Positions 8,801 to 34,359 of a DNA stretch of 64,000 nucleotides are shown here, piece by piece. Positions within the stretch are counted from its first letter, which is position 1. The number at the start of each line of letters is the position of its first letter. The stretch comes from an uncultured Candidatus Saccharibacteria bacterium. Its GTDB lineage: Bacteria; Patescibacteriota; Minisyncoccia; Phycocordibacterales; CAIZLB01. Where the stretch lies: positions 85,151 through 149,150 of the forward strand of contig CAZVIP010000002.1 in assembly GCA_964627085.1 (NCBI GenBank). Direction: 5' to 3'. Under the pieces are notes generated by a model. That model was not told where the DNA came from. It saw only the letters and a program-made list of their open reading frames with translations, and made no database searches. The translations under genes were made by a program, and so were the position numbers.

Positions 8801-10092
8801 AAAGTAGCATTACCACTAATTGTTCCGTAGTACATGGAGCTACTATTATTAAAACGAACATCGCCAGTTATATCAACATCGCCAATAGATGAAGTATCAT
8901 TTAATACAATACCATCCGTCGTACCGATAGGTATCGTAAAGTATGACGTCCCGTTTAGAGTTAGTGATTTGACAGTACTACCAACATCAACACTGTATGT
9001 TGTAATATTTTTACTACTTACACTTACATCAGTAGCCACTGTCGGGAAAATCAAAGACTGAATGGTGTAATTCGAATCATCCCACCAGTTATTTAAATTT
9101 GACCAATCCCCATCATCGGTTGGGCTATGAAAAAACTTAGAACCAGCACCACAAACTGTCACCAACCCTGACGCAGTTCCGGTATTCAAGTCGATAGCAG
9201 CAAAACAGGCATCACCGTTAACCGTACCGGCATTCGCAGCACTAGCACCCAAAAAGATTGTCATTAGTGGCGAGGTAATAACCCCTGACCCGCTATTATA
9301 TGAGCTCCCTAGAAACTTCGTAAATGCATTAATTGTACCATCGTTAAAAGCTGTATCACTGAAGGTGGTTGTTGCATTAATAATTCCTACCGTACCATTA
9401 CGTGCCTCATTCATAAATTCAACTTTATTACCACCCGCACCACTGATAGTTGCAGTGTTATACGACCGATCATTAAATCTTATGACACCACCAGGTATAC
9501 TCCCATCGAGAGTGAGCTCGCCTCCATTGTGCGTGTCATGGCTAAATATGATTTGGTGTGCATTAACACTAGATCCCGGCGCAGAATATGCGAAAGTAGA
9601 AAATATCACACTCGCACTTGGTGCGTTGAGAGTAACACCATTACCAAGGAAAGAGTCTCCTCCGAATTCCACAGACGAAGAGATATCAATTGTGCCCACA
9701 CCCTCAATTGATGCAAAACTAATTGCAGAAAGAGAAAACAAACTTATAGGGTCACCTGAATTTCCAGTCACTGAGGCAGACAGTACGACTTGATCCTCTG
9801 AGGTTGGGAGCACAGGTGAAGGCACAGTAAAGGTATCGTCGAGCCACCAGTTGCTTAGATTGGACCAGTCACCATCTGCCGTGGCATTATTGTAGTAGCG
9901 AGTCTCAGCATTTGCCTGCGCAGGAAATGCAAAGAATGTGAAAATTAAAAACAGAATAGAGAAAAAAAATAAAACTTTTTTTTGTTTTATTTTTTGAAAA
10001 CCCTCTTGAGGTATTTTGCTTGAAAATAATTGTTTTAGTGTACTGGGCATCAGTGTTATTTTAGCAAAAAATAGACTATTTTGAAACCCCAA
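5899..10092 (-). CDS. Giant (1397 aa) secreted cell-surface protein. It has four tandem beta-helix-like modules, two fibronectin type III domains and a C-terminal peptidoglycan-binding domain.
   Basis: There is an N-terminal signal/TM segment (FFFSILFLIFTFFAFPAQANA). Four modules each start with a DGDWSNLSNWW-like motif (variants are FHSPTDDGDWSNLNNWWDD, FHNAANNGYWHDLTNWF and FHNSVDGEWHTLGNWWLND). Repeated NDTSYNTGTI.GD and ACFA.T motifs also occur. Two FN3-like segments are present (ITWTSSESATYDVEYGLTTSYG and ISWTTNESATSSVEYGLTTSYG). The C-terminus LIQRYLNTHGFPVANYGVGSLGKETTKFGLATRQAIIRYQKAH matches a PG_binding_1 domain. Confidence 0.7.
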   Translation of the reverse strand: MGFQNSLFFAKITLMPSTLKQLFSSKIPQEGFQKIKQKKVLFFFSILFLIFTFFAFPAQANAETRYYNNATADGDWSNLSNWWLDDTFTVPSPVLPTSEDQVVLSASVTGNSGDPISLFSLSAISFASIEGVGTIDISSSVEFGGDSFLGNGVTLNAPSASVIFSTFAYSAPGSSVNAHQIIFSHDTHNGGELTLDGSIPGGVIRFNDRSYNTATISGAGGNKVEFMNEARNGTVGIINATTTFSDTAFNDGTINAFTKFLGSSYNSGSGVITSPLMTIFLGASAANAGTVNGDACFAAIDLNTGTASGLVTVCGAGSKFFHSPTDDGDWSNLNNWWDDSNYTIQSLIFPTVATDVSVSSKNITTYSVDVGSTVKSLTLNGTSYFTIPIGTTDGIVLNDTSSIGDVDITGDVRFNNSSSMYYGTISGNATFNTTAYDQIGSSVPTSGVFTMSTGAIWSTEINGTVYDSNNAQVTSYVFNGPTEPDIDIDGDAVFNGNPLRNSHTVNGNATFNLGSTNEGTVIGNATFNDFSHNFGNINGDMYLNTEYYLNGSSTPTGGILTINGEGIWSGIVSGNVYGSDMAQITQYVFNDNSHAQSDISANTVIFNDNSHFDSGSITAEVTFNDTSYNTGTINGDTLFNTNYYDETNDIYPVDGTLTVSGSRWLSGVYNGDVYVPGSGMIARTIVEDYVFRDSSTNAASLTGNARFLDISTNQGQGVITGDACFASTATNYGTVSGSTTVCPTKLYFHNAANNGYWHDLTNWFTDSAYTIPAGIIPTSEYDVYVGVGETIIQNNGGSQASAKSLHVANGSVSGFEITVSDFARFTGTAQSGLIIYGNACFAPTAVNNGTVSGTMSVCGNYFHNSVDGEWHTLGNWWLNDILTIPAETVPGVDDDIVVTSAIEANSGGPISIRSATFNGSSNLGYLVTMSVSQGVIFNDSTYINGGTVNGTTTFNTDFYDAIDSTKPVGGVFNINNQAWSGSVVGEVLGSDSAAITKYVFSGNAFNNGGTLYRNSEFYDTSYNNGAIDGDACFAPTASNSGTVTGNVSVCYVPDLPPTITLVSATTTPTTATITWTSSESATYDVEYGLTTSYGSSIGATGSTTYIATITGLTQNTLYHFKINGVDAGSNSTSSADATFTTTIAPDITPPVISNITISGVTDVAATISWTTNESATSSVEYGLTTSYGSQSSIGSLNTNHSISLSSLAQSSVYHYRVISTDAVGNVATSSDQTFTTSATSVPTSGGSTGGSSSGSAPASGSSGTGGGVYIIYGIGQNNASSTASSSQSSLTNNASSTSGIGNGIGNGQGSLPQNNLYVFTINRRLWMTGADVKLIQRYLNTHGFPVANYGVGSLGKETTKFGLATRQAIIRYQKAHKISPAVGYFGVKTRSAFNAGL

Positions 10093-21220: not shown

Positions 21221-21315
21221 AAGAACCCCTTCTATATCCTCAGCGACAATCCAATCACAGCCTTCTGATCCGACAATTGCTGCGCGCTTTATACTAGACG
21301 AGATGTGAATCTTTC

Positions 21316-21798
21316 TCAAGCCGAAAATGTATTATCAAAACTAGAAACAGCATCCTTAACTTCCTTTGAGAATACTTTTCCAGATGCCCAAGGAATGTAT
21401 TCACTCAATTTTTCAGGCCTTAAAAAAAGTCTTTCAGATGTTTCCATTTTTTTGTCAAAAATATTTACTTGAAAAGCGGATGCGGTAAATCTTAATTGAT
21501 AATTAATTTCATTTGTCTCAAGATTTACCACTTTCACTTTACCTAGATATTTAATGTTATCTATTTCAACCATAGCTTCTTCCATGACTTCTCTTTTTAA
21601 AGCCATCAAATAATCCTCCCCAACCTCTGGGTGCCCACCAGGTATTGTCCAGTTTTTACTTTTTACTATCAATAAGTCTTTGTCCTTGTTAAATACATAC
21701 CCGCTCACCTGAGATACACCCTCTTGTGGTATTTCACCGCCATGAGTCCAAATAAATTGATATGTTTTATCTCCAAATTTAACAATTTCTTTTACCAT
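21316..21798 (-). CDS. NUDIX hydrolase
   Basis: The Nudix box is GGHPEVGEDYLMALKREVMEEAMV. Confidence 0.75.
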   Translation of the reverse strand: MVKEIVKFGDKTYQFIWTHGGEIPQEGVSQVSGYVFNKDKDLLIVKSKNWTIPGGHPEVGEDYLMALKREVMEEAMVEIDNIKYLGKVKVVNLETNEINYQLRFTASAFQVNIFDKKMETSERLFLRPEKLSEYIPWASGKVFSKEVKDAVSSFDNTFSA

Positions 21799-21826
21799 GT
21801 AAATACATTATACCCAAAAGATTCTC

Positions 21827-22147
21827 TTATACACTCTCCAACGAATACACATCCATTGCAACCTCATCGTATGGATGAACTTCTTTGATTGCTTGGATGA
21901 CGTCTTGTAATTTGTCGCGTGAGCATACTGTTTCAATTCTTTCTTCAATCACTTCTTCATATTTTCCCACTTCACCGATATGTGGATTTGCACCAGCTTC
22001 AGGTTTAAATCTTCCCACGCCTTTTGATGAAAATGTGCAGTGTGTATAGTTACCTATTTTCCCAGCACCTGCATTACCCATGGCTTCACGAACAATATCA
22101 GTGTGAGTTTCTGGGACAAAGATGACAATTTTTACGTTTGGGGTCAT
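21827..22147 (-). CDS. Stand-alone NIF3/YqfO insertion-domain-like protein
   Basis: VIFVPETHTDIVREAMGNAGAGKIGNYTHCTFSSKGVGRFKPEAGANPHIGEVG...VHPYDEVAMDVY matches the PII-like insertion domain and C-terminal HPYEEPAYD motif of NIF3/YqfO proteins. Confidence 0.5.
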   Translation of the reverse strand: MTPNVKIVIFVPETHTDIVREAMGNAGAGKIGNYTHCTFSSKGVGRFKPEAGANPHIGEVGKYEEVIEERIETVCSRDKLQDVIQAIKEVHPYDEVAMDVYSLESV

Positions 22148-22176
22148 ATATGTGTTTAGGATAAATTAGTTTAGTA

Positions 22177-22479
22177 TTAAAGAGTATACCTGGACAAATC
22201 ATTTACCTTCATCTTTGAAAGTACCGGGTTTTTAACAGACTCTAAGACTTTGGTTATTTTAACCCCTGCAATTAGTTCTTTAATAAATTCTATAACTTTG
22301 GTCGGTTCATTTCCTGCAATGATTGCAAAGCGAACAACATTTTCTTTGTCAGATGCATTTTCTGTGAGGCAAACAATATCATTTTCGATAGTGAATTTAC
22401 GAATACGCCCACGCAACATCACACCATGCAGCGCATCTGCATCACTTTGAATTTCATAGATGTCCCAAGTTAATTCCAT
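22177..22479 (-). CDS. Hypothetical 100 aa protein (possibly an acylphosphatase-like fold)
   Basis: The ORF is intact and close to its neighbours, but there is no strong motif. Confidence 0.35.
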   Translation of the reverse strand: MELTWDIYEIQSDADALHGVMLRGRIRKFTIENDIVCLTENASDKENVVRFAIIAGNEPTKVIEFIKELIAGVKITKVLESVKNPVLSKMKVNDLSRYTL

Positions 22480-22485
22480 AATATT

Positions 22486-23062: not shown

Positions 23063-25078
23063 TTAATTAATTATTTTTATAATACCTGTATTGGCATCAA
23101 CTTCGACCATGTCGCCGTCTTTCAGTGCTCTAGTTGCATTTTTCGTCCCAACAATACATGGGATTTTTAGCTCACGAGAGATTATTGATGCATGGCACAT
23201 AATCCCACCCTCGTCAGTTACAATCGCACCGGCTTTTTTCATCAATGGGATGATATCTGGATTCGTGCTTATCGCGACTAATATTTCACCCTCTTCAAAT
23301 GGTGTATTCGGGTTATTAGATAAAAGCTTGCGCACTTTGCCAGTAACTTTACCTGGATATGTAGATTGCCCCGAAATACTTGAGTTCTCAGATTTTTCTA
23401 TTTCAGAAAATAATTTTTCAGAATTATCGACGTATTTGATTTCTTCGACGCCATCTATATAACGATATACATAACATTCTCCCTTCTCTGCATACTCCTT
23501 TCTGTTTTGAATATGCGCAAAGTCATCTGTCAGAACTTCGTGAATAGTTAGAAAAGCATAGTCGTCCTCATTTACACCATGTGATTTCAGTTTTGCTTTT
23601 ACAGATGGAATGAGTATTCCTGAAAGAAAGCGCGGATAATATGATTCTGACCTTAATTCCTTGCAAGCATTTAGTATTTCGGTGTGAGCTGGATTTTGTT
23701 CATCTAATTTTTCAACTGCAAACATTGGAAATATCACCGAATAGATCGCCAACTCTATTAGTGTTGCGAGCGCTTCGTCTACGGTAGCTGTCTTTTTTTC
23801 ATTGATTACATTTGAAACATTTTTATTCAGCTCTATGCCCTTTTGCAAAATCTCGAGAGCTTTTTTTGGCTCACTTAATGCAATGTCCGCTATTCGATTC
23901 TTCATTTCATCAATAGCACTTACATCACGAAAATGATTTGAAGTATTTCTAGGGTATTCAATAAAGAGACCCTTTTGCATATTTACTCCTATTATCTTTT
24001 TCATCAAATCTCCTGCATACCACATATTCCACACCGACGTCACAAAAAGATCAAATGGCCTAGAGATATACAAACTCCAGTCTACCGACGATTGATTAGT
24101 ATTTATATTTTTAGATCCAGCAGACAAAGTCGTAATCGGCCTACTCTGCACAATATAAAACTTGCCGGCTTCCCAGGCCCATTCGATATCACATGGGAAT
24201 CCATAGTGATTTTCGATAGTGAGAATAATTTCTGAGAGCTCGAGAATTTGCGCATCTGTGAGCACTTGTGAAGAAGCTTTTGGCTCTGCAATGGTCATCC
24301 ATTCATTATTTCCATGTTCAGCGGAAATATTTTCGGAACGATACAAGCCCCTTTCTTGTGTAGAGATATTTTTATCAAGAATATTTCTCGGTTCTTTTTC
24401 AACGACATATGAATCAGGGGTAACTGATCCGGACACAATTGCTTCACCAAGTCCAAATCCCGCTTCGATGATAAGTTGATTATAATCTTCGGTCACTGGA
24501 TGCACCGAGAATGCGATACCAGACAATTCTGATTCAACCATTTTTTGGACGACAACTGCGACGGAAATTTTTGTGGCGTGGAGCTCCTTTTCAAAACGAT
24601 AAAAAATAGCACGTGGAGTAAAGAGCGACGACCAACACAGCTTCACCTTTGTTAAGACATCGTCCTCTGTTGTATTGAGATATGACTCAAGTTGCCCCGC
24701 CCATGCATGATCCTTGCCATCTTCTGCAGTTGCTGAAGACCTGACCGCAACATATTTTGCATTCAGTTCTTTGAAAGATATATGTATCGCTTGTGCAATA
24801 TCCTCTGGCATATCGCGAGATAGGATGAGTGCTCGGATTGCCTCTGAGGCAGATTCGACGGTATGAATTTCTTTGTGATTTACTTTATGTAAAATTGAAT
24901 CAATCTCCTGTACGAGGTCTGTCTCGTGTAAAAACTGCTCAAATGACTCCGAAAGGACCACAAAACCAGGTGGTACTGGGATGCCTGCTTGGGTCATCTC
25001 ACCGAGAGACGCCCCTTTTCCTCCTGCGATATCGGCATTGTTTTTGCTGAGTTCCTTAAAATTACGAATTAATTCCAT
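23063..25078 (-). CDS. PEP-utilising phosphotransferase (PPDK/PEP-synthase-like N-terminal ATP domain plus C-terminal phosphohistidine mobile domain). It lacks the TIM-barrel PEP/pyruvate domain and has a rifampin-phosphotransferase-like architecture.
   Basis: The N-terminus GGKGASLGEM...VAVRSSATAEDG...AGQ is the PPDK_N ATP-grasp-like nucleotide-binding region. The C-terminus AIVTDEGGIMCHASIISRELKIPCIVG is the PEP-utilisers His domain. Confidence 0.6.
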   Translation of the reverse strand: MELIRNFKELSKNNADIAGGKGASLGEMTQAGIPVPPGFVVLSESFEQFLHETDLVQEIDSILHKVNHKEIHTVESASEAIRALILSRDMPEDIAQAIHISFKELNAKYVAVRSSATAEDGKDHAWAGQLESYLNTTEDDVLTKVKLCWSSLFTPRAIFYRFEKELHATKISVAVVVQKMVESELSGIAFSVHPVTEDYNQLIIEAGFGLGEAIVSGSVTPDSYVVEKEPRNILDKNISTQERGLYRSENISAEHGNNEWMTIAEPKASSQVLTDAQILELSEIILTIENHYGFPCDIEWAWEAGKFYIVQSRPITTLSAGSKNINTNQSSVDWSLYISRPFDLFVTSVWNMWYAGDLMKKIIGVNMQKGLFIEYPRNTSNHFRDVSAIDEMKNRIADIALSEPKKALEILQKGIELNKNVSNVINEKKTATVDEALATLIELAIYSVIFPMFAVEKLDEQNPAHTEILNACKELRSESYYPRFLSGILIPSVKAKLKSHGVNEDDYAFLTIHEVLTDDFAHIQNRKEYAEKGECYVYRYIDGVEEIKYVDNSEKLFSEIEKSENSSISGQSTYPGKVTGKVRKLLSNNPNTPFEEGEILVAISTNPDIIPLMKKAGAIVTDEGGIMCHASIISRELKIPCIVGTKNATRALKDGDMVEVDANTGIIKIIN

Positions 25079-25155
25079 AAGGCGATTTTATCATAAAAGT
25101 GGCTTTTTCTACAGATAGAAAATCTCAATTTGAAGCACTTTAATACAGACTAAAG

Positions 25156-25644
25156 CTATTCAAGCAAACCCTTTATAGCCTCAATATCATATTCATGCGC
25201 CACCTTTATGTGTACAATTTTTACACCAGCACCTTCAAGTATGGCATCAACCTTTCTATCCCTGCTTTCTCTTTTTGGTAGTGAATGTGATGAGTCATCT
25301 AATTCAATCACAGTATGTGGTGTAAAATACGGTTTCTCAAATAAGACAAAATCAACTACATATCGATTGATTCTATTTCTATATGTAAACTTATGTTTCT
25401 CGTATTTGTTTACAGAAACTATATTTGATAATGCAACCTGTGGAATGACATGATATTTTTCATCAACAACTGAGATTAAAATATCATAAAATTTTCTCTC
25501 CGCAATAGTCATCAAAAACGGTCGCTTAACGAAATGCTTATGATTGCCTGTTTTAATACCTATAATTAATTTTATGTACAAGAAAACTCCTGCGGAGATG
25601 ATGGTAAATAAAATTAAAATTCCGAGTGTATTGAGTGGGTTCAT
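25156..25644 (-). CDS. DUF2726-domain protein (restriction-endonuclease-like fold) with an N-terminal TM anchor
   Basis: ERKFYDIL...PQVALSNIV...VDFVLFEKP..PHTVIELDDSSH matches the DUF2726 conserved core. Confidence 0.55.
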   Translation of the reverse strand: MNPLNTLGILILFTIISAGVFLYIKLIIGIKTGNHKHFVKRPFLMTIAERKFYDILISVVDEKYHVIPQVALSNIVSVNKYEKHKFTYRNRINRYVVDFVLFEKPYFTPHTVIELDDSSHSLPKRESRDRKVDAILEGAGVKIVHIKVAHEYDIEAIKGLLE

Positions 25645-25683
25645 GCATAAAGCATAACATAGGTAATATGGGCTTTATTTTCC

Positions 25684-26214
25684 CTACCGCAAGACCACAA
25701 TACGATGATGATACTGTGCGTGTCGAACAGAGCCATCCAAGAAGCGAGTGATACGTATGTCGCGTTTGCCATCAGATAGTATACGTACATCTGCAACAAA
25801 GAATTCATCACCAGTTTTGAAGAGAAAACGGAAACATGTCCATTCTGCATCGAGTAGATAATCCTTTGCATTATTAACAATAAAGCTCTTGATCTGAGGA
25901 GTAGTCAGTATCAAGTGTTCGAAATTATTATCTACACCACCAAAAATCTTTGGGTACTCAGCATCTTCGATTTGTTCATATACACTAACTTCCACTTCGG
26001 GAGTTGCTTGCTCAGTTTTATCGCATCCCCAATTTTTGAAATCAGGACTGATATAGCTAAATATATCTGTAGCGGATGCAAGTATTTCTGTACCATCAGT
26101 AGCACCGATAGTCACATGTTTGTCTAAAGAAATAAGTTTAAGGCAACCGACAGTGCTTCTTTGGGTAACTTGAGGTGCATCGGGTTCGTTTTGATTTGGG
26201 TTTGTGTTGTTCAT
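25684..26214 (-). CDS. Hypothetical protein (177 aa counting from MNNTNPNQ)
   Basis: The ORF has a plausible start at an internal Met. The longer given ORF overlaps the upstream gene. No motif was recognised. Confidence 0.4.
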   Translation of the reverse strand: MNNTNPNQNEPDAPQVTQRSTVGCLKLISLDKHVTIGATDGTEILASATDIFSYISPDFKNWGCDKTEQATPEVEVSVYEQIEDAEYPKIFGGVDNNFEHLILTTPQIKSFIVNNAKDYLLDAEWTCFRFLFKTGDEFFVADVRILSDGKRDIRITRFLDGSVRHAQYHHRIVVLR

Positions 26215-26299
26215 GTGTTTTTTAGTGGTAAGAATTTTCGGGACTTTTTTTGCGCTCCTTCGGGATTGGATGATTTTGTAATTTAGCTTTGCTTCGCAC

Positions 26300-26944
26300 C
26301 TATAAAGCAAAACTATCTGTACTAAATCCACCCGCAACAGCAAGCTTAATGAATTCCTCTCGTGTCTCCGGAGTCTTCTGATAATGCATTGGTATAATCT
26401 TACCAATCTTCTTAAATTGTTTTACAAAATCAAATGCCTCTTGCGGACCAAAAGTATAAAACGTACCGACAGGTATAAGCGCGATATCTACCTCTAGATT
26501 TGAAACATCTATACCTGAAGGATAAAACATATCTCCTGCAAAATAGATTTTTTGTCCATCAGCTTCAATAAGAAATCCAAAATTTTCTCTAGGTCTTAGC
26601 TTAATATTTGGACCATGATCGACATCAAAAAAATGCACCTTGATACCATCAATATCTATCTGATCATCTACCTTCACTTGAATAATTTCAGATGGCAGTA
26701 GCTCCTCTCCGAGAGCCTCAACACACTCTTCATTGAGATAAATCTTTTTTGGAGAAAGAGTCTTGATCTGTTCGACAGAAAAATGATCACTGTGAATATG
26801 CGAAACTAACATTGCATCAGGAAAAATGCCACTTAACTTTTCTATCGGAGAATAGCTTCCAATATCAATTGCCAACTTATAACCATTGTCAGTTTCAAGA
26901 ATAAATCCGGATTGTTCGTAGTGTGAAATCTTCATATTTCCCAT
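26300..26944 (-). CDS. Metallo-beta-lactamase-fold hydrolase
   Basis: SHIHSDH (the HxHxDH motif) with downstream His/Asp ligands. Confidence 0.7.
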   Translation of the reverse strand: MGNMKISHYEQSGFILETDNGYKLAIDIGSYSPIEKLSGIFPDAMLVSHIHSDHFSVEQIKTLSPKKIYLNEECVEALGEELLPSEIIQVKVDDQIDIDGIKVHFFDVDHGPNIKLRPRENFGFLIEADGQKIYFAGDMFYPSGIDVSNLEVDIALIPVGTFYTFGPQEAFDFVKQFKKIGKIIPMHYQKTPETREEFIKLAVAGGFSTDSFAL

Positions 26945-27213
26945 TATATCTTGATTTGGAAGATGAGCTAGGTTTTGACATCACCTGAATTAGGCCTTAC
27001 TTAGGCTCTCTTCTCGCCGGAAGGTGTCTGAGGCATGCAAAGAGTTCAATATCTAAAAGGTACAAACTTTGAGAAACGAGAGTTACTGAGTTGCTTGAGA
27101 AGTAAGGCAACAGTACAAAATAAGGCTATATGCATGGTGCGCATGAAAAAAACTATCCAATCAATACACCCAACACGTTCTCCAGTTCTAACCATTTGTG
27201 ATATATTTAAAAT

Positions 27214-27711
27214 ATGAAATTAATATTTACACTTATCAACATATTCTTACTAGGCACCCTAGCTTTTGTAGGGATTGCAAATGATATGTTTGATGAGTTT
27301 TCAAGTTTTATAATATTTTGTTTACTTCTTACCCCTTTAGTTATCGCACTAGCGTATACTAACGGTTCATTCAGGAATCATTTCATTAAGTGGTTACTTT
27401 TTGCTGTTTATCAAATCACAGCCTTGTCTCTATTCTATCTAATATTAGTCGAGAATTCTAACATAAAAGAACTTATTTTAGGCTTATGTACAGTCGGGGC
27501 ACTTGTATTTAATTCTCTGTATATTTTTCAATTTAAAATCAGAAATATAGATCAGATCTATATTAGGATTGCCAAAGAAAAAGAAGAGGGGTACAAGGAC
27601 GAAGGGCTTTGGATTAAAGCAGTTAGTATGTCAGGAGGTAACGACAAGAAAATAGAATCACTATATATAAAACTTAGGGTAAAAAAACTTCTAGAGCAAG
27701 GTGATAAATAG
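27214..27711 (+). CDS. Membrane protein, 4 TM helices, with a Lys/Glu-rich cytoplasmic tail
   Basis: Judged from the hydrophobicity pattern only. Confidence 0.4.
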   Translation: MKLIFTLINIFLLGTLAFVGIANDMFDEFSSFIIFCLLLTPLVIALAYTNGSFRNHFIKWLLFAVYQITALSLFYLILVENSNIKELILGLCTVGALVFNSLYIFQFKIRNIDQIYIRIAKEKEEGYKDEGLWIKAVSMSGGNDKKIESLYIKLRVKKLLEQGDK

Positions 27712-27913
27712 CACACTTTCAAATATATCAATACTTTGACACGCCCGAGCACAAGACTCTCTTTTTCAAAACCTAACCCCTCCCGATACTATGAGACTGT
27801 CACATGGCTGCATGCATCCAATATTTTGAACCGCAGCCTGCCAAACCCTATAAGGAGATTTAATACCCTTGCATTTAAGACGTAACTTGAGTATCTAAAA
27901 AGTGACAATGACA

Positions 27914-28153
27914 CTAACCTCTGGGAGGAAATGGGTCTCGTCCATAAGTGTTTGATTGCGATATTTTTCCATCTTTATTCTGAACCCTGAGTTCTGCATC
28001 ATTCTTTTTGGCAATTTCTATAGCCCTCTTTACAGCACTTGCTTTATTCACAGCGTGTAAGCTGTCTCGTTTAGTATCCGTCTGATGAACACGCCAACCC
28101 CCTCCTTGCTTTGGTGATACCCATACCTGTTTTTTTGGTGACTGTTTAGACAT
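27914..28153 (-). CDS. DUF2188-family small protein
   Basis: GGGWRVHQ...AVKRAIEIAKKNDAELRVQNKDGKI...YGRDPFPP matches DUF2188. Confidence 0.55.
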   Translation of the reverse strand: MSKQSPKKQVWVSPKQGGGWRVHQTDTKRDSLHAVNKASAVKRAIEIAKKNDAELRVQNKDGKISQSNTYGRDPFPPRG

Positions 28154-28793
28154 TTTTTTGATTATTCATTTTATTAAAAGCATCAATAACCTCAAGTTTA
28201 AAAGGCTGATCAGGGGCTTCATATGCTTGTTCTACATACCCTACAGCCAAAGCCAAATCCTCGATACTATTTTCTTGAATACCTTTCTCGTAATAGCAAT
28301 GAGCAAGGTAAAAATTGCATGTATTAATTTTTCTATCATCCCTCAAAACTACCGAAGAATCTCGTAGAGCTTTTAGGGCATCTACAGCCTTACTAAACTC
28401 TTTTGAAACTATAAAAGACATCGCGTACTGTAGCTGGTTTGTATACTCTAGTAATTCCTCATTTATTTTTTTCTCTGCTAAATTAATTCTCTTTTCAGCG
28501 TCATCAATTTTTTCTCTTGATGCGTCAATCTTGAAGCCAGAATAAACAAAAAAAACTGCAAATAACGTTGAAAGGACTGTCATAAAAAATATCCAGTGAT
28601 CATCATCGCTTTCTTGCTGTGGAGCATGATAGTTACAATGAACAACGGGGTATCTTTGATGACTGTTGTCAGACGGGCTATGGGTAAAGAGATAGATCAG
28701 AACACTGAAAAACAGTAGGATAATTGCCTTAAAAATAAAGTCTTTTGATACATTCATTGGTTTAATTATACACACATTGCTTACCATTAACAC
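28146..28793 (-). CDS. Membrane protein with a TPR-like C-terminal region
   Basis: It has two TM helices followed by an amphipathic helical repeat region. It overlaps the downstream gene by 8 bp, so the two are co-transcribed. Confidence 0.4.
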   Translation of the reverse strand: MLMVSNVCIIKPMNVSKDFIFKAIILLFFSVLIYLFTHSPSDNSHQRYPVVHCNYHAPQQESDDDHWIFFMTVLSTLFAVFFVYSGFKIDASREKIDDAEKRINLAEKKINEELLEYTNQLQYAMSFIVSKEFSKAVDALKALRDSSVVLRDDRKINTCNFYLAHCYYEKGIQENSIEDLALAVGYVEQAYEAPDQPFKLEVIDAFNKMNNQKNV

Positions 28794-29102
28794 CCTTCAC
28801 CTGCATTGAAGCGTTAATAATAGTTGTCACTTCCATAAGGCGTGGTAAATCCCCATTGATGTTTAGCAAGCAGAATAAATCATAAAGCTTTTCAATGTAT
28901 TTCTAGAAACGTTCATCTGTTGATCCATTGTTTAATATTTTATTTACACACCTTAGCATCTCTTTCGTGTTGTCCACCTTAGTCATTTACTTCTAACTAT
29001 TGAACCATACATGGTTTTTTGAGCTGTAATATTATTCTGTTTCAAACGATTCTTGGAACAACAAACATATACCTTCGTTTTACTTCACACAAATAATCAC
29101 AT

Positions 29103-30863
29103 TTAGGCCACCTCTTCACCAGAAGTAGGATTATCCAGTTTTACTAAAGCATCAAAATCTACATCCCTCCATTCCTGTTTCCATAAATCAAAATACGGGA
29201 TATCAGTTGATTCTGGTTCATGTTCAGGAAAATCGATTTGCACCACAGAAGGTAAAGATATCGATTCTCCTATTAACAAAGCCTCTCCAGACTTCAGTGA
29301 AGGCAATGCGTTGGTAATGTCCCCGAGAGCATCTGGTAACAATTTTTTAACATAATTTTGATCATCGGGATTTGTGAGTCTCATGGCAATAAAGTTATTG
29401 CACTGAGAAAAAATGGTCTCTGAAACCTCAGATGGTCTTTGACTTACAACACCTAGAGTCACGCCATATTTTCTACCTTCTTTTGCGATCCGCTCGATAG
29501 CTGTTTTTGATGCCCGATATTTAATCAAATCACTTCGCGGTACATACTTATGAGCTTCTTCATAGATAATTAACAGCGGAGCCTCACTGTCGACACCAAC
29601 TGGAAGGCTTTTTTTGTGATAATAACCATAGTCAAACAGTAATCTGGATATTAAAGAGACTGTGATACTCAGCACCTCAAACGGAATACCCGACAAATCA
29701 ATAACTGTAACATTTGATTTACTTTCACTATAACCAAGTAAATGTTTCATCACGGTTTGCAAACCATCTGTTGCACCTGAATCAAAGATGAATTTGAGGC
29801 GTGGGTTATTGATGCTATTTTCCAATCTCAAAACAAATCTTTCAAAATCACCTTTATATGGACCTGCTTTAATTTTTGAACGGCTAGATTCTGCAAACCT
29901 AACCACCTCATCAAAATATCTATCCGTTCTCTCATTAATTGAGACCTCATTTTCATCAACTGGAATACCGTCCTGACTAGCAATCATTTCGTTGTTTAAG
30001 TTTTTAATATAATTGACCACTTCCTCTATATTAAATTTGAGAGGTGAGTCAAAATAAATCTTATCTTTATGAACACCCGGATTATGTTTTACTTTATTTG
30101 CAGTTACCGCTTGCTTAAAAATTGAAACTTGGTTATGGGAATTCTCCTCATTACTTTCAATAAAGAGATCAGCTAATTCCTCGCTGTCAAATAACCAATA
30201 AGGGATTTTAATATTCGTATGATTTATGTGGTTACCATCAGGGAAAGCTTTTTTATACTCGCCATGAATATCAAATATTACAATATGTGAGTTATTTAAG
30301 CCCCTAAACCCACCCTCTTTTTCTTTCACAGCTTGCTGTATGACCGATGCTAAAGTATGGGATTTACCAGAGCCAGTTGAACCAACAATAGCAAAATGTT
30401 TGTTAAAAAATTTATTCCCATTCACATAAGCTTTAACACTTTTATTTTCTGAAAGACTTGAAAAGGTAAATTTATCTCCGTCTTTTAGTTTACAGGTATA
30501 AATGTTGTTGAAATCATCTTCACCAAAAATTGCTATTCCGTTATTAGGCGGCAAGGGAACTCCGTGTGCCCCACGTTTAAAGTCGTACTTTCCACTTGTA
30601 GAGTCTTTTATATAGGTACCAATCAGTCTCACCTCGATTATAAAAGTAGGTGAGTCAGTTTCAATCTCAGGATCGGGGTGGTCATTCGCTTTAATTTTGT
30701 AATTTTCTATAACTCCAACAATAAAATTTTCACCTGAGTCATTGTTTGGAATCTTTACAAAACTACCAATACTGAATTGACCAAGAAACTCTGTAGGGTC
30801 TAAAATTTCTATTGAAACTAAATTTCTTGTCACCGATACTATTTTAAAGTTATTTGAATCCAT
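29103..30863 (-). CDS. HerA-like (DUF87/FtsK-HerA superfamily) ATPase
   Basis: Walker A is AIVGSTGSGKSHTLASV. Walker B is HIVIFDIHGEY, which is the HerA-typical hhhhD..GEY form. C-terminal motifs LLIIYEEAHKYVP and VSQRPSEVSETIFSQCNNFIAMRLTN are HerA/DUF87 hallmarks. Confidence 0.7.
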   Translation of the reverse strand: MDSNNFKIVSVTRNLVSIEILDPTEFLGQFSIGSFVKIPNNDSGENFIVGVIENYKIKANDHPDPEIETDSPTFIIEVRLIGTYIKDSTSGKYDFKRGAHGVPLPPNNGIAIFGEDDFNNIYTCKLKDGDKFTFSSLSENKSVKAYVNGNKFFNKHFAIVGSTGSGKSHTLASVIQQAVKEKEGGFRGLNNSHIVIFDIHGEYKKAFPDGNHINHTNIKIPYWLFDSEELADLFIESNEENSHNQVSIFKQAVTANKVKHNPGVHKDKIYFDSPLKFNIEEVVNYIKNLNNEMIASQDGIPVDENEVSINERTDRYFDEVVRFAESSRSKIKAGPYKGDFERFVLRLENSINNPRLKFIFDSGATDGLQTVMKHLLGYSESKSNVTVIDLSGIPFEVLSITVSLISRLLFDYGYYHKKSLPVGVDSEAPLLIIYEEAHKYVPRSDLIKYRASKTAIERIAKEGRKYGVTLGVVSQRPSEVSETIFSQCNNFIAMRLTNPDDQNYVKKLLPDALGDITNALPSLKSGEALLIGESISLPSVVQIDFPEHEPESTDIPYFDLWKQEWRDVDFDALVKLDNPTSGEEVA

Positions 30864-30868
30864 ATATC

Positions 30869-32074
30869 TTATTTTAAAAATTTTACTAAATATTTTGTAC
30901 TAAGACCGTCCACTTTAACAAAAGGAATACCTGCAAACTCTTCTGGGATTAAGGAGTTAAAACAGTAGACTTTATTCGGCATCAGAGCATCAGCAACTGC
31001 AGGCAAATTCTCAATAGACACCAACCTTACATGAAATGAAATTTTTGACAGACTATCAGACCCTTTTCGACCTTTTGGAACTTTATTTTTAATTGGTTCA
31101 CCAGCTAAAATTTCTACACTAAATTTAATTGTTTCATAACCATCATTAAACATAACCCCTTTCTCAATCAAAGACTCTTTAACGGAGGTTAGGTGCCTCT
31201 GGGTCAGCGCAACAAGAGGGGGTTTGATGTCGGTTTTTGCATTTTGAAAGTATGATTCAATAAGGCTGACAACCACTTCGTCTACAGAACATATTTCGTC
31301 TATCTCGATGTTACCAATGATAAAGAAATTGTTCCAATTCCTATGAATTGACCCTCGTTCAAACTCTTTCTCAACAAATTTAAAATATGCCTCTGCTCCT
31401 CGATACTCTTTAAACTCGGTAGTAAATATTGCTGATCTTGCCCCCCTTAAAAGCTGTACTATCTGTTTTTTATTACAGACCCTGTTACAACCTTCAGGAT
31501 CACTTATTATCATTGTTTGAAGGAAACCGACCAATTGCGAATGGTGGAAAACCGCCTGCTCATCATCTATCTCAGGTAGAACCTGTTTAATAAGGCCAAG
31601 TACCTCTTCGAACTGTTTTTGAAACTTAGGGGCAAAAACTATCTTAAACTTTGATGCAAATGATTCTTTATCTGATTGAGAAATTGATTCTAACTCCTTA
31701 TTTATTCTGATAGCTTCATTTGATGTGCCATTAACTTTTGAAAGTATTATATCTAAGTCAGTCACTTTAACATCCCAAACTTCTTCTTTTCGATTATTAA
31801 AGTGACAATAAATGATATAGGTCTTTTCTGGATCAGTCTTGAAAAGTTGTAACAGCTGCATAACCGGCTCTCTAAGAGAGGTATTTGTGTAATCCTTGGT
31901 CTCTCTGTATTTAATCTGAAATACATAGTCATTGTGATCAAGATCTTGAATTTTCTCTACACCTACCTCACTTTCTTCATCATCATTACTTAAAATAGCA
32001 ATAAGTGTTTTATCAAACTGATATGAATATCCTTTTATTGCATAATAGGCGCCGTCCATTTCTAAAGTATACAC
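30869..32074 (-). CDS. DUF4297-like protein (predicted PD-(D/E)xK-type nuclease effector), co-operonic with the HerA-like ATPase
   Basis: The N-terminal motif AIKGYSYQFDKTLIAIL is the G[FY]xYQ signature of DUF4297. The protein is 401 aa and lies 5 bp upstream of the HerA gene on the same strand. Confidence 0.5.
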   Translation of the reverse strand: MYTLEMDGAYYAIKGYSYQFDKTLIAILSNDDEESEVGVEKIQDLDHNDYVFQIKYRETKDYTNTSLREPVMQLLQLFKTDPEKTYIIYCHFNNRKEEVWDVKVTDLDIILSKVNGTSNEAIRINKELESISQSDKESFASKFKIVFAPKFQKQFEEVLGLIKQVLPEIDDEQAVFHHSQLVGFLQTMIISDPEGCNRVCNKKQIVQLLRGARSAIFTTEFKEYRGAEAYFKFVEKEFERGSIHRNWNNFFIIGNIEIDEICSVDEVVVSLIESYFQNAKTDIKPPLVALTQRHLTSVKESLIEKGVMFNDGYETIKFSVEILAGEPIKNKVPKGRKGSDSLSKISFHVRLVSIENLPAVADALMPNKVYCFNSLIPEEFAGIPFVKVDGLSTKYLVKFLK

Positions 32075-32325
32075 GAAGTTGATGTACTAGAAAGCCACCA
32101 AAAAAAATGAACGCGAAGTGCTATTTCTTTCTGAATTAGGCAGTAACCACTTCAGTGACCTTGTTAACTTTTCAGCCTTGTTGCACCACGACCTACCCTC
32201 TTCTTCAGGCTCGAAGCGATTTTTGTAATTGGCTTGTGCTCCGCACAAGGACGGAAAATGTCAGTTGCGGTTTTATATCAACGTCGAAATCTGCTGATTT
32301 CGACGCAAATTTTACGCATAAAATT

Positions 32326-32399
32326 TGGCTGCCAGACTTGGAATCGAACCAAGATTAAAGGCTTCAAAGGCCTCTGTCCTACCTTTAGACGATCTGGCA
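32326..32399 (-). tRNA. tRNA-Gln (anticodon UUG), with the CCA encoded
   Basis: The reverse-strand read is UGCCAGA-UC-GUCU-AAAGGUA-GGAC-A-GAGGC-CUUUGAA-GCCUU-UAAU-CUUGG-UUCGAUU-CCAAG-UCUGGCA-G-CCA. This gives a 7 bp acceptor stem, a canonical T-arm (GGUUCGAUUCC) and a CUUUGAA anticodon loop. A 9 bp hairpin lies downstream. Confidence 0.8.
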
Positions 32400-32456
32400 A
32401 TATATCAAATAATCTTCAAATAATGATGAAATTATCCTAAATCAGTTGATTGACCC

Positions 32457-33825: not shown

Positions 33826-34359
33826 ATGCCAGCTATTCAGAAAAAACCAACACCAAGAAAATGGGCAGCAATCCTGCGCACCAAACCAAAAACCGCCAAC
33901 AAGGACATCAAACGAAAACACGTTACAAAGAAGACAAAGCATGTCCCAGCCGACGAGATACCTTTCAAGGAATCTGACCGGCCAGGAATTGACCTTGGTC
34001 TTTTGGCCATGTTCCCTGAGCGGGCCAGCATACGCATTTGCCCAGCACTGGGAAATAAAGGCCTAGGACCCACAGATCCTCATTACTTTGAAATCACATA
34101 CAAGTGTCCCACTGGCAAAATCCGCGAGACAATAATGAAATCAAAGACTGCAAAAAGACGCACGCTGTTACTCAAGTGGATACGAGAATTCTTCTCCACC
34201 CTCGAGGAAAAAGTTTATGGTGACAAACGTCTCGGTCGCAGAGGTAAGCCAAAATTTACTTTACACTTCAATCCAGACGCAGTCAGAGATATCATGCGAG
34301 AACTTGCCGAAAAAAACTACATGCAGCTGCGACGCGCGGACGAAGTTACAAATCCATAA
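33826..34359 (+). CDS. GC-rich basic hypothetical protein (177 aa)
   Basis: It has a Lys/Arg-rich N-terminus, a terminator downstream and GC content clearly above its flanks. No motif was recognised. Two shorter overlapping + frame ORFs are probably artefacts. Confidence 0.35.
   Translation: MPAIQKKPTPRKWAAILRTKPKTANKDIKRKHVTKKTKHVPADEIPFKESDRPGIDLGLLAMFPERASIRICPALGNKGLGPTDPHYFEITYKCPTGKIRETIMKSKTAKRRTLLLKWIREFFSTLEEKVYGDKRLGRRGKPKFTLHFNPDAVRDIMRELAEKNYMQLRRADEVTNP

What the first reader, a model, noticed from the sequence alone, without database searches (positions are those of the whole stretch)
25156..32400. AT-rich accessory island abutting tRNA-Gln (DUF2726, MBL-fold, DUF2188, membrane proteins, HerA pair)
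From ~25.1 kb to the tRNA-Gln gene there are nine small genes that look non-housekeeping: a TM-anchored DUF2726 restriction-endonuclease-like protein, a hypothetical, an MBL-fold hydrolase, a membrane protein, DUF2188, a TPR-like membrane protein, and the HerA/DUF4297 pair. Most are on one strand and ORFs overlap by 8 bp at 28146-28153. The block sits between conserved genes (the PEP-utilising enzyme upstream, dnaX downstream). No integrase or direct repeat of the tRNA 3' end was found by eye, so it may be an old, decayed island, or a defence island that was not integrase-mediated.
Basis: inference. Interest (0 to 1): 0.5.

Follow-up and report, generated by a model that had tools for sequence, protein, structure and literature searches.

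The report
Defence island beside tRNA-Gln gene
A 7.2-kb strain-specific stretch directly after a tRNA-Gln gene in an ultra-small (Paceibacteria/CPR) bacterium carries a complete copy of the already known DUF4297-HerA anti-phage system, a few small genes of unknown role, and the last 28 codons of a lost serine recombinase gene. It is a real but fairly ordinary decayed mobile island.

Summary
It ends exactly at the 3' end of tRNA-Gln(UUG).

A close relative (DnaX 98% aa; 87-94% nt in the flanks) loses all similarity to the window exactly at the tRNA 3' end (32328). It loses it again just upstream of the PEP-utilising gene (25060-25098). So the block is strain-variable.

The tRNA-proximal 3 kb is a two-gene DUF4297-HerA defence operon:
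- PADLOC gives 5.7e-206 for HerA and 8.6e-28 for DUF4297.
- PDB 8XAU/8XAV give 1.5e-157 and 2.2e-18.
- All published catalytic residues are conserved.

DUF2188 matches the PADLOC candidate PDC-S16. The other genes have no defence hit.

I found a 28-aa relic (27056-27139, +) of the C-terminus of a large serine recombinase (30.3 bits, E 3.7e-08; background at most 13.7 bits). This recombinase family sits 3' of dnaX-tRNA-Gln in several other Paceibacteria, in one case beside a type I R-M system. Other relatives carry tRNA-Gln 3'-end repeats at the same site.

Verdict: a decayed integrative island at a recurrent tRNA-Gln hotspot, and a new member of known kinds.

The parts
32326..32399 (-). tRNA-Gln (anticodon UUG). 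Its 3' end at 32326-32328 is the right edge of the variable block.
   Evidence: ARAGORN. Rfam tRNA 62.9 bits. Similarity to relatives L138/L139 ends at 32328.
30869..32074 (-). DUF4297-family nuclease partner of HerA, 401 aa from GTG 32074. Gene callers prefer ATG 32059, giving 396 aa. The PD-(D/E)xK-type residues D44, Q53 and K55 are intact.
   Evidence: PADLOC PDLC02187 8.6e-28. NCBIfam DUF4297_antiphage 1.1e-39, 136.6 bits, below the 300-bit cut-off. PDB 8xav_G 2.2e-18 over residues 9-314. Residues map to D40/Q53/K55, which were mutated in PMC11291478. No Pfam hit.
29103..30863 (-). Anti-phage-type HerA ATPase, 586 aa, starting 5 nt after the DUF4297 stop. Walker A K167/S168, Walker B E435/E436 and arginine finger R464/K465 are intact.
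   Evidence: PADLOC PDLC02188 5.7e-206, full length. NCBIfam HerA_antiphage_2 8.4e-214, 711.6 bits, cut-off 850. PDB 8xau_A 1.5e-157. Motif positions; residue roles from PMC11291478.
28146..28793 (-). Membrane protein with two TM helices and a C-terminal helical-repeat (TPR-like) domain. 203 aa from ATG 28757, or 215 aa from GTG 28793. Its stop overlaps the DUF2188 start by 8 bp.
   Evidence: ORF list. Hydrophobic segments. AF2 pLDDT 73.9. Foldseek top hits are TPR domains with E 0.04-0.3. No Pfam, PADLOC or PHROG family.
27914..28153 (-). DUF2188 protein, 79 aa. Matches PADLOC defence candidate PDC-S16.
   Evidence: Pfam DUF2188 7.3e-14. PADLOC PDC-S16 2.6e-23, full length. phrog_3220 8.7e-22.
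27214..27711 (+). Four-TM membrane protein, 165 aa, no known family. The only solid gene on the + strand.
   Evidence: ORF. Hydrophobicity. No family hits.
27056..27139 (+). Relic of the C-terminal tail of a large serine recombinase (KGTNFEKRELLSCLRSKATVQNKAICMV), inside ORF 27035-27217. It points towards the tRNA, as the intact recombinase genes do in relatives.
   Evidence: A profile of the last 70 aa of 5 recombinases found next to tRNA-Gln was run against the six-frame window. It gave a single hit: 30.3 bits, E 3.7e-08. In 1.5 Mb of other loci, the best non-recombinase hit is 11.5 bits and the best reversed-sequence hit is 13.7 bits. tblastn with the L142 fragment gives E 0.006. No other part of the recombinase is detectable.
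26300..26944 (-). MBL-fold metal-dependent hydrolase, 211-214 aa.
   Evidence: Pfam Lactamase_B_3 1.2e-19. NCBIfam PRK00685 1e-17, below cut-off. phrog_392 1.1e-17. No PADLOC hit.
25684..26214 (-). Hypothetical protein, 176 aa, with no relatives found.
   Evidence: No family in four libraries. Its 90% cluster has one member. AF2 pLDDT 35, unusable.
25156..25644 (-). DUF2726 (restriction-endonuclease-like fold) protein with an N-terminal TM anchor, 162 aa.
   Evidence: Pfam DUF2726 5.5e-23 and DUF559 2.1e-06. phrog_14167 4.2e-14. TM segment 3-33. No PADLOC hit.
25099..32327 (.). Extent of the strain-variable block, between the two points where similarity to close relatives ends.
   Evidence: L070 matches window 24310-25098 at 92.4% nt and L141 matches 24129-25060 at 94.5%; each has unrelated DNA upstream. 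L138/L139 match 35422/33974-32328 at 87-94% and then diverge.

Best explanation
Window 25099-32327 is a strain-specific genomic island inserted directly 3' of tRNA-Gln(UUG) in a Paceibacteria (CPR) chromosome. It most likely descends from an integrative element driven by a large serine recombinase whose gene has since been destroyed.

Shown:
- The block is bounded on both sides by points where close relatives lose all similarity to the window.
- It is the most AT-rich stretch of the window.
- Its tRNA-proximal 3 kb is an intact DUF4297-HerA operon with every published catalytic residue.
- A 28-aa recombinase C-terminal relic lies 5.2 kb from the tRNA, in the canonical orientation.
- Intact recombinases of that family sit at the same dnaX-tRNA-Gln site in other Paceibacteria.

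Inferred from the characterised homologue (PMC11291478): HerA forms a hexamer that recruits DUF4297 and so brings its nuclease domains together as dimers. Assembly switches on both the ATPase and a non-specific dsDNA nuclease. On phage infection the complex degrades phage and host DNA (abortive infection).

Inferred more weakly:
- The overlapping TM/TPR-like and DUF2188 pair and the TM-anchored DUF2726 nuclease-fold protein are further accessory, possibly defence-related, cargo.
- The MBL hydrolase, the 176-aa protein and the 4-TM protein have no assignable role.
- The island is now immobile, because the recombinase is lost and no att repeats remain.
For: Defence pair: HMM and PDB matches; catalytic residues; 5-nt spacing, same strand. 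The order DUF4297 then HerA is the same as in annotated plasmid systems, e.g. NZ_CP091649.1.

Variability. The relative has DnaX 98%, PPDK N-half 96.6% and Ser-hydrolase 93.7% aa identity, yet unrelated DNA on the inner side of both flanks.

Mobility of the pair: the closest relative (HerA 72%, DUF4297 45%) lies in groundwater contigs with different neighbours, next to tRNA-Glu.

Composition.

Recombinase relic.

Same site used in relatives:
- Serine recombinases 3' of tRNA-Gln occur in L030, L031, L150 and an ERZ1426851 contig. L150 also carries a type I R-M system.
- tRNA-Gln 3'-end repeats occur in L018, L021, L028 and L012.

CPR bacteria are already known to carry diverse defence systems (PMC12259885).
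Against: - No contig of a relative bridges tRNA-Gln to the PEP-utilising gene. An 'empty site' was therefore not seen, and the two flanks might not be adjacent in relatives.
- The relic is only 28 aa.
- The left 3.7 kb is compositionally ordinary and has no defence-model hits apart from DUF2188.
- No att repeat is present.
- HerA and DUF4297 score below NCBIfam equivalog cut-offs, and Pfam PF14130 misses the partner.
- All about 30 contigs carrying the island are the same strain at about 100% identity, so within-species presence/absence is untested.
- The neighbourhood shows other indels against the relative (21226-22483; the PPDK C-half), so general plasticity contributes.
- No experiment was done.
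Confidence: 0.72

Rival explanations
1. Mosaic, not one island. Only the DUF4297-HerA cassette (about 29.1-32.3 kb) is a recent import placed next to the tRNA. The other genes (25.1-28.8 kb) are older resident or separately acquired variable DNA.
For: Only the HerA pair is a di- and tetranucleotide outlier (top 4-5% of 3-kb windows). The left part sits at the 16-48% level. The closest relative of the pair travels without any of the other six genes. The recombinase relic lies between the two parts.
Against: Close relatives also lose similarity at the far left edge (25060-25098), not at 28.8 kb. None of the six left-hand genes has a 90-99% variant in any other strain among 15 billion proteins. 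GC is low across the whole block.
Confidence: 0.3
2. A recombinase-independent hotspot. The content between conserved flanks is swapped by homologous recombination, as at defence hotspots of well-studied bacteria. The short recombinase-like stretch would then be incidental debris from an earlier occupant.
For: No intact integrase and no att repeat. Three related strains each have different DNA upstream of the PEP-utilising gene. Several other indels lie nearby.
Against: The break is exactly at the tRNA 3' end, which is typical of site-specific integration. Intact recombinases of the same family occupy this site in L030, L031 and L150. The relic has the canonical orientation.
Confidence: 0.2
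3. Not an island at all. These are ordinary, vertically inherited chromosomal genes, and the differences from relatives reflect deletions and rearrangements in the relatives.
For: Gene order in this phylum is scrambled at the distances available: 134 of 170 genes downstream of tRNA-Gln in relatives are singletons. PPDK relatives share almost no neighbours with the window. Every contig of this strain carries the block.
Against: Both edges break precisely in relatives that are 87-94% identical in the flanks. The block has the lowest GC in the window. It carries a known mobile defence cassette and a recombinase relic. The relative L138 has a different mobile-element marker gene at the same position.
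Confidence: 0.07
4. A prophage remnant.
For: DUF2188, DUF2726, MBL and HerA-like proteins have PHROG matches. Serine recombinases are also used by phages (established knowledge).
Against: No structural, packaging or lysis gene is present. Pattern scans of the viral contig collection with three island proteins found no relatives. The HerA match is to the anti-phage clade, not to terminases.
Confidence: 0.04

Closest known systems
DUF4297-HerA (HerA-DUF, 'Gao_Her_DUF') anti-phage system, structures 8XAU/8XAV (PMC11291478)
   Same: Two adjacent co-directional genes in the order DUF4297 then HerA. There is a full-length HerA match (1.5e-157) and a DUF4297 match over residues 9-314 (2.2e-18). Nuclease residues D/Q/K, Walker A Lys, Walker B Glu-Glu and the Arg finger are all conserved.
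   Different: The host is a CPR/Paceibacteria bacterium. The DUF4297 partner is highly divergent: no Pfam hit, 136.6 bits against a 300-bit NCBIfam cut-off, and only 19 relatives found by the word-indexed search. Activity is untested.
SIR2-HerA anti-phage system
   Same: A HerA hexamer acts as scaffold and activator of an effector. HerA homology is present (PDB 8wiv 1.4e-54; 8j4u 3.5e-29).
   Different: The effector here is a Cap4-like nuclease-type protein, not a SIR2 NADase. The HerA match is far weaker than to the DUF4297-associated clade.
tRNA-linked genomic and defence islands
   Same: Sits at the 3' end of a tRNA gene, has lower GC, carries defence cargo, varies between close relatives, and the same tRNA is used repeatedly in related genomes.
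   Different: No tyrosine integrase and no duplicated tRNA 3' end in this window. The associated recombinase family is a large serine recombinase.
Integrative elements driven by large serine recombinases (own knowledge: SCCmec Ccr, phage phiC31/Bxb1-type integrases)
   Same: Relatives carry Resolvase+Recombinase+Zn_ribbon_recom proteins of 429-442 aa at the site. The absence of long flanking repeats fits this chemistry.
   Different: Only a 28-aa C-terminal relic survives here. Integration beside a tRNA gene is, to my knowledge, unusual for this enzyme class, and it was not demonstrated.

Membership tests
DUF4297-HerA defence system | HerA ATPase of the anti-phage clade | tested here: met
   PADLOC PDLC02188 5.7e-206, positions 7-573 of 578. 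PDB 8xau 1.5e-157.
DUF4297-HerA defence system | DUF4297-family partner protein | tested here: met
   PADLOC PDLC02187 8.6e-28. NCBIfam NF042945 1.1e-39. PDB 8xav_G, 8ziq_A and 9c1m_A. Pfam PF14130 gives no hit.
DUF4297-HerA defence system | Scores above the curated equivalog cut-offs (NCBIfam) | tested here: not met
   HerA_antiphage_2 scores 711.6 against a cut-off of 850. DUF4297_antiphage scores 136.6 against 300. These are divergent members.
DUF4297-HerA defence system | The two genes are adjacent and co-directional (operon) | tested here: met
   5-nt gap, both on the minus strand, DUF4297 upstream. Same order in annotated plasmid systems.
DUF4297-HerA defence system | Intact nuclease (D40/Q53/K55) and ATPase (K157, E426/E427, R455/K456) residues | tested here: met
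   D44/Q53/K55 in the partner; K167, E435/E436 and R464/K465 in HerA. Residue roles from PMC11291478.
DUF4297-HerA defence system | Supramolecular HerA-DUF4297 assembly, dsDNA nuclease activity, protection against phage | not testable with these tools
   Needs biochemistry and plaque assays.
tRNA-associated genomic island | Located at the 3' end of a tRNA gene | tested here: met
   tRNA-Gln 32326-32399 on the minus strand. Divergence from L138 begins right after ...TCTGGCAGC.
tRNA-associated genomic island | Absent or different in close relatives while the flanks are conserved | tested here: inconclusive
   Both flanks break at the block edges in relatives that are 87-94% identical. No contig joins the two flanks, so no empty site was seen.
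tRNA-associated genomic island | Integrase or recombinase gene | tested here: not met
   No intact gene. Only a 28-aa serine-recombinase relic.
tRNA-associated genomic island | Direct repeat of the tRNA 3' end at the distal edge | tested here: not met
   None at up to 3 mismatches. The best local alignment is within the shuffle range. The weak ATTTTAnCATAAAA similarity at both edges looks like a shared -10-type promoter motif.
tRNA-associated genomic island | Deviant base composition | tested here: met
   Lowest-GC 7.2-kb stretch of the window. Tetranucleotide distance in the top 1.3% for the whole block, driven by the HerA pair.
Large-serine-recombinase integrative element | Resolvase + Recombinase + Zn_ribbon_recom protein | tested here: not met
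   Present in relatives at the same site. In the window only the extreme C-terminus remains.
PADLOC candidate PDC-S16 | Match to the PDC-S16 model (DUF2188) | tested here: met
   2.6e-23, positions 3-75 of 75. A defence role for this candidate is itself unproven.

The most novel reading that the evidence does not exclude
Paceibacteria harbour a family of integrative elements driven by large serine recombinases that target the 3' end of tRNA-Gln(UUG) next to dnaX. These elements carry a conserved 255-aa partner gene of unknown function, which is 97% identical between genomes whose MFS gene, the only other window gene with a match there, is 67% identical to the window's copy. They shuttle cargo that includes defence systems between CPR bacteria: DUF4297-HerA here and type I R-M in L150. 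This window would be a decayed copy. The overlapping TM/TPR-like and DUF2188 pair could be an undescribed membrane-linked defence module.
Probability: 0.35. Interest if true: 0.55.

Novelty: new member of a known kind. Interest (0 to 1): 0.35.

Why it matters
It places a biochemically characterised abortive-infection system (DUF4297-HerA) in an ultra-small, host-dependent CPR bacterium. It also shows how such a genome acquires defence genes: through a recurrently used site at the 3' end of tRNA-Gln, probably served by serine recombinases. This is useful for annotating CPR genomes and for choosing divergent DUF4297-HerA variants to test. It does not change what is known about the system or about defence islands.

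Tried and rejected
- Synteny with distant relatives is uninformative. In 36 genome loci found with dnaX and 79 metagenome loci found with PPDK, only Dus-x-dnaX-tRNA-Gln is conserved, and nothing on either inner flank. DnaX has no relatives between 53% and 98% identity in 5.8 billion proteins.
- The Logan contigs with the island are all the same strain (about 100% identical), so they say nothing about presence or absence. Several contigs end inside the tRNA. I rejected this as evidence, because tRNA sequences shared between species break assembly graphs.
- tRNA 3'-end repeat searches in the window were negative. The ATTTTAnCATAAAA similarity at both edges was rejected as an att site. It is not significant (score 20 against a shuffle mean of 16.6 and maximum of 25), and it resembles a TGnTAAAAT -10-like motif also seen upstream of other genes.
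- The conserved ~90-nt motif that follows tRNA-Gln in L138 and L142 is absent from the window.
- Viral-contig pattern scans with the TM/TPR protein, the 176-aa protein and HerA found no relatives.
- The third gene of the closest DUF4297-HerA locus (166 aa) is unrelated to the window's TM/TPR protein.
- The single-sequence AF2 model of the 176-aa protein was unusable (pLDDT 35).
- Promoter and terminator scans were at the shuffle level.
- Rfam found only the tRNA.
- The 'Anti-Pycsar Apyc1' faint tag on the MBL protein did not reappear when I scanned Pfam up to E = 10.
- The afdb50 fold library was unavailable.

Full report
**What is in the sequence**

The interval contains eight well-supported genes:
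- DUF2726 with an N-terminal membrane anchor (25156-25644, -)
- a 176-aa hypothetical protein (25684-26214, -)
- an MBL-fold hydrolase (26300-26944, -)
- a four-TM protein (27214-27711, +)
- DUF2188 (27914-28153, -)
- a two-TM protein that overlaps DUF2188 by 8 bp (28146-28793, -)
- HerA (29103-30863, -)
- its partner (30869-32074, -)

tRNA-Gln(UUG) lies at 32326-32399 on the minus strand, so its 3' end faces the block. The flanks are a PPDK_N/PEP-utilizers protein and dnaX.

The block has GC 0.357 against 0.397 for the window. It is essentially the lowest-GC 7.2-kb stretch, ranking 4th of 569 sliding windows. By tetranucleotide distance the whole block is in the top 1.3%. That signal comes from the HerA pair, which is in the top 4% of 3-kb windows. 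The left 3.7 kb is ordinary.

**Organism**

DnaX and its neighbours place the window in Patescibacteria/Paceibacteria (CPR). Among 5.8 billion proteins the nearest DnaX is one variant at 98%, and the next are at 53% or below. About 30 public contigs carry the island, but all are about 100% identical to the window. They are the same strain.

**The defence pair**

HerA matches the PADLOC model for the DUF4297-associated HerA end to end (5.7e-206). The partner matches the PADLOC DUF4297 model (8.6e-28).

NCBIfam gives HerA_antiphage_2 at 8.4e-214 and DUF4297_antiphage at 1.1e-39. Both are below the equivalog cut-offs: 711.6 against 850, and 136.6 against 300. Pfam PF14130 does not detect the partner.

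Against solved structures:
- HerA matches 8XAU at 1.5e-157.
- The partner matches 8XAV chain G at 2.2e-18 over residues 9-314.

The paper describing those structures (PMC11291478) reports the following:
- Assembly of the complex dimerises the DUF4297 nuclease domains and activates both the ATPase and a dsDNA nuclease.
- The system aborts infection by degrading phage and host DNA.
- Mutation of D40/Q53/K55 in DUF4297, or of K157 in HerA, abolishes defence.

The corresponding residues are all present here: D44/Q53/K55 in the partner, and K167, E435/E436 and R464/K465 in HerA. The genes are 5 nt apart, in the same order as annotated plasmid systems.

This is a divergent but bona fide DUF4297-HerA system.

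**Is it an island?**

Distant relatives cannot answer this. Dus-x-dnaX-tRNA-Gln is conserved in about 24 loci, but what follows the tRNA differs everywhere. Relatives found with PPDK share almost no neighbours with the window.

Close relatives can answer it.
- L138 and L139 (Logan SRR27977625 and SRR27977624) are 87-94% identical to window 35422-32328. They then diverge completely, starting right after the last bases of the tRNA.
- From the same sample, L141 matches the PPDK N-half at 94.5% nt (96.6% aa), the Ser-hydrolase at 91.7% and the 495-aa gene at 92.4%. It has unrelated membrane-protein genes upstream of PPDK. Similarity ends at window 25060.
- L070 is 92.4% identical up to window 25098, and upstream of that it is unrelated both to the window and to L141.

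So both edges of 25099-32327 are points where close relatives lose similarity. None of the island genes has a 90-99% variant outside this strain.

The main limitation is that no contig of a relative joins the two flanks.

**The missing integrase**

The gene that follows tRNA-Gln in L138 belongs to a 255-aa family. It has a 97%-identical copy in GCA_030917685.1 (L142). That genome is otherwise distant: the only other window gene with a match in L142, an MFS gene, is 67% identical.

In several genomes this gene sits beside a large serine recombinase (Resolvase + Recombinase + Zn_ribbon_recom), 3' of tRNA-Gln:
- An ERZ1426851 contig has Dus - dnaX - [gap] - 256 aa - 427 aa - DUF5677 - recombinase. 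No DNA was held for this contig, so the tRNA itself could not be checked there.
- L150 has tRNA-Gln - 200 aa - 263 aa - recombinase - type I R-M.

Homologous recombinases also lie 0.1-2.6 kb after tRNA-Gln in L030 and L031, without the 255-aa gene. There the cargo is thioredoxin/DsbA and metal-related genes.

I built a profile from the last 70 residues of five of these recombinases and ran it against the six-frame translation of the window.
- It gives exactly one hit: ORF 27032-27214 (+), 30.3 bits, E 3.7e-08, sequence KGTNFEKRELLSCLRSKATVQNKAICMV.
- In 1.5 Mb of other loci the profile finds only the recombinases themselves (at least 110 bits). The next best hit is 11.5 bits, and reversed sequences reach at most 13.7 bits.

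The relic points towards the tRNA, as the intact genes do. The rest of the gene is gone.

Serine recombinases do not create long target duplications (established knowledge). This fits the absence of any tRNA-derived repeat in the window.

Independently, four distant relatives (L018, L021, L028, L012) have clear copies of the tRNA-Gln 3' end 0.14-4.5 kb downstream. The site is therefore used repeatedly across the class.

**The other genes**

- DUF2188 matches PADLOC candidate PDC-S16 (2.6e-23) and a phage family.
- Its overlapping partner is modelled with moderate confidence as two TM helices plus a helical repeat. Its best structural matches are all TPR domains, at weak E-values.
- DUF2726 has a restriction-endonuclease-like fold (Pfam family annotation) and a phage-family match, but no defence-model hit.
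- The MBL hydrolase, the 176-aa protein and the 4-TM protein remain unassigned.

Calling these genes 'defence' is inference only.

**Mobility of the pair**

The nearest relative of the pair (HerA 72%, partner 45%) occurs in groundwater contigs with unrelated neighbours. It also lies next to the 3' end of a tRNA, in that case tRNA-Glu. The cassette evidently moves on its own, which leaves room for a mosaic origin of the block.

**Comparison and verdict**

- The system is a new, divergent member of the known DUF4297-HerA family.
- The locus is a typical tRNA-adjacent island in its position, composition and variability.
- It is atypical in lacking an intact recombinase and att repeats.
- It is associated with a serine recombinase rather than a tyrosine integrase.
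- Defence systems in CPR bacteria have already been catalogued (PMC12259885), so the host is not a surprise.

The most novel possibility left open is a family of tRNA-Gln-targeting serine-recombinase elements that move cargo among Paceibacteria.

Noticed in passing
window 21226-22483 and 23063-24128: Two further differences from the close relative L141. The NUDIX gene (weak PADLOC PDC-S07 hit, 1.2e-07), the 106-aa gene and the 100-aa gene are absent there. The C-terminal half of the 671-aa PEP-utilising protein is replaced by a separate Mur-ligase-like gene. The variable zone is therefore wider than the reported island.
   Followed up: partly
L018 12865-12893; L021 16585-16611; L028 11261-11279; L012 11435-11449: Direct repeats of the tRNA-Gln 3' end lie downstream of dnaX-tRNA-Gln in four distant Paceibacteria. 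Scores are 30-43 against a shuffle maximum of 23-26. In L018 the repeats bracket peptide deformylase and hydrolase genes.
   Followed up: partly
L142 3152-3303 and 5985-6100; L138 3043-3130: In L142, a tRNA-Gln(CUG) gene and, 2.8 kb further on, a tRNA 3'-half remnant are each followed by a shared ~90-nt motif (CATGTGAGA...ACGCCTAAA...AGTCATGGGCTCGAACTT). The two copies bracket MarR-MatE-flavodoxin genes. The same motif follows tRNA-Gln in L138. It is absent from the window.
   Followed up: partly
L138 3241-3789; L142 6219-6986; L150 10001-10792: A 255-263-aa protein family with no Pfam or PADLOC match has graded homologues from 97% to 48% identity. It recurs between tRNA-Gln and a large serine recombinase. 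Its function is unknown.
   Followed up: partly
L052 8602-8850 (also L051): Beside the closest DUF4297-HerA relative, a tRNA-Glu(UUC) gene is followed about 100 nt later by a degenerate tRNA-like copy that shares the anticodon-arm and 5'-end segments.
   Followed up: no
window 32323-32328 vs L138 3040-3046: The window's tRNA-Gln gene is followed by an encoded CCA. The otherwise identical tRNA in the relative is followed by CAG. Divergence therefore starts at the very last bases of the tRNA.
   Followed up: no
window 33826-34359: The 177-aa gene between dnaX and Dus is only 53% identical in amino acids to its counterpart in L138, although the neighbouring genes are 92-98% identical. It is a fast-evolving gene of unknown function.
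   Followed up: no
window 5899-10092: The 1397-aa gene is the strongest di- and tetranucleotide outlier of the whole window, more so than the island.
   Followed up: no
window 25079-25098, 32308-32324; L070 and L141 upstream of PPDK; L138 upstream of the 255-aa gene: A TG-n-TAAAAT-like motif occurs about 10-20 nt upstream of several start codons. This suggests short-leader transcripts with an extended -10 promoter in this lineage.
   Followed up: no
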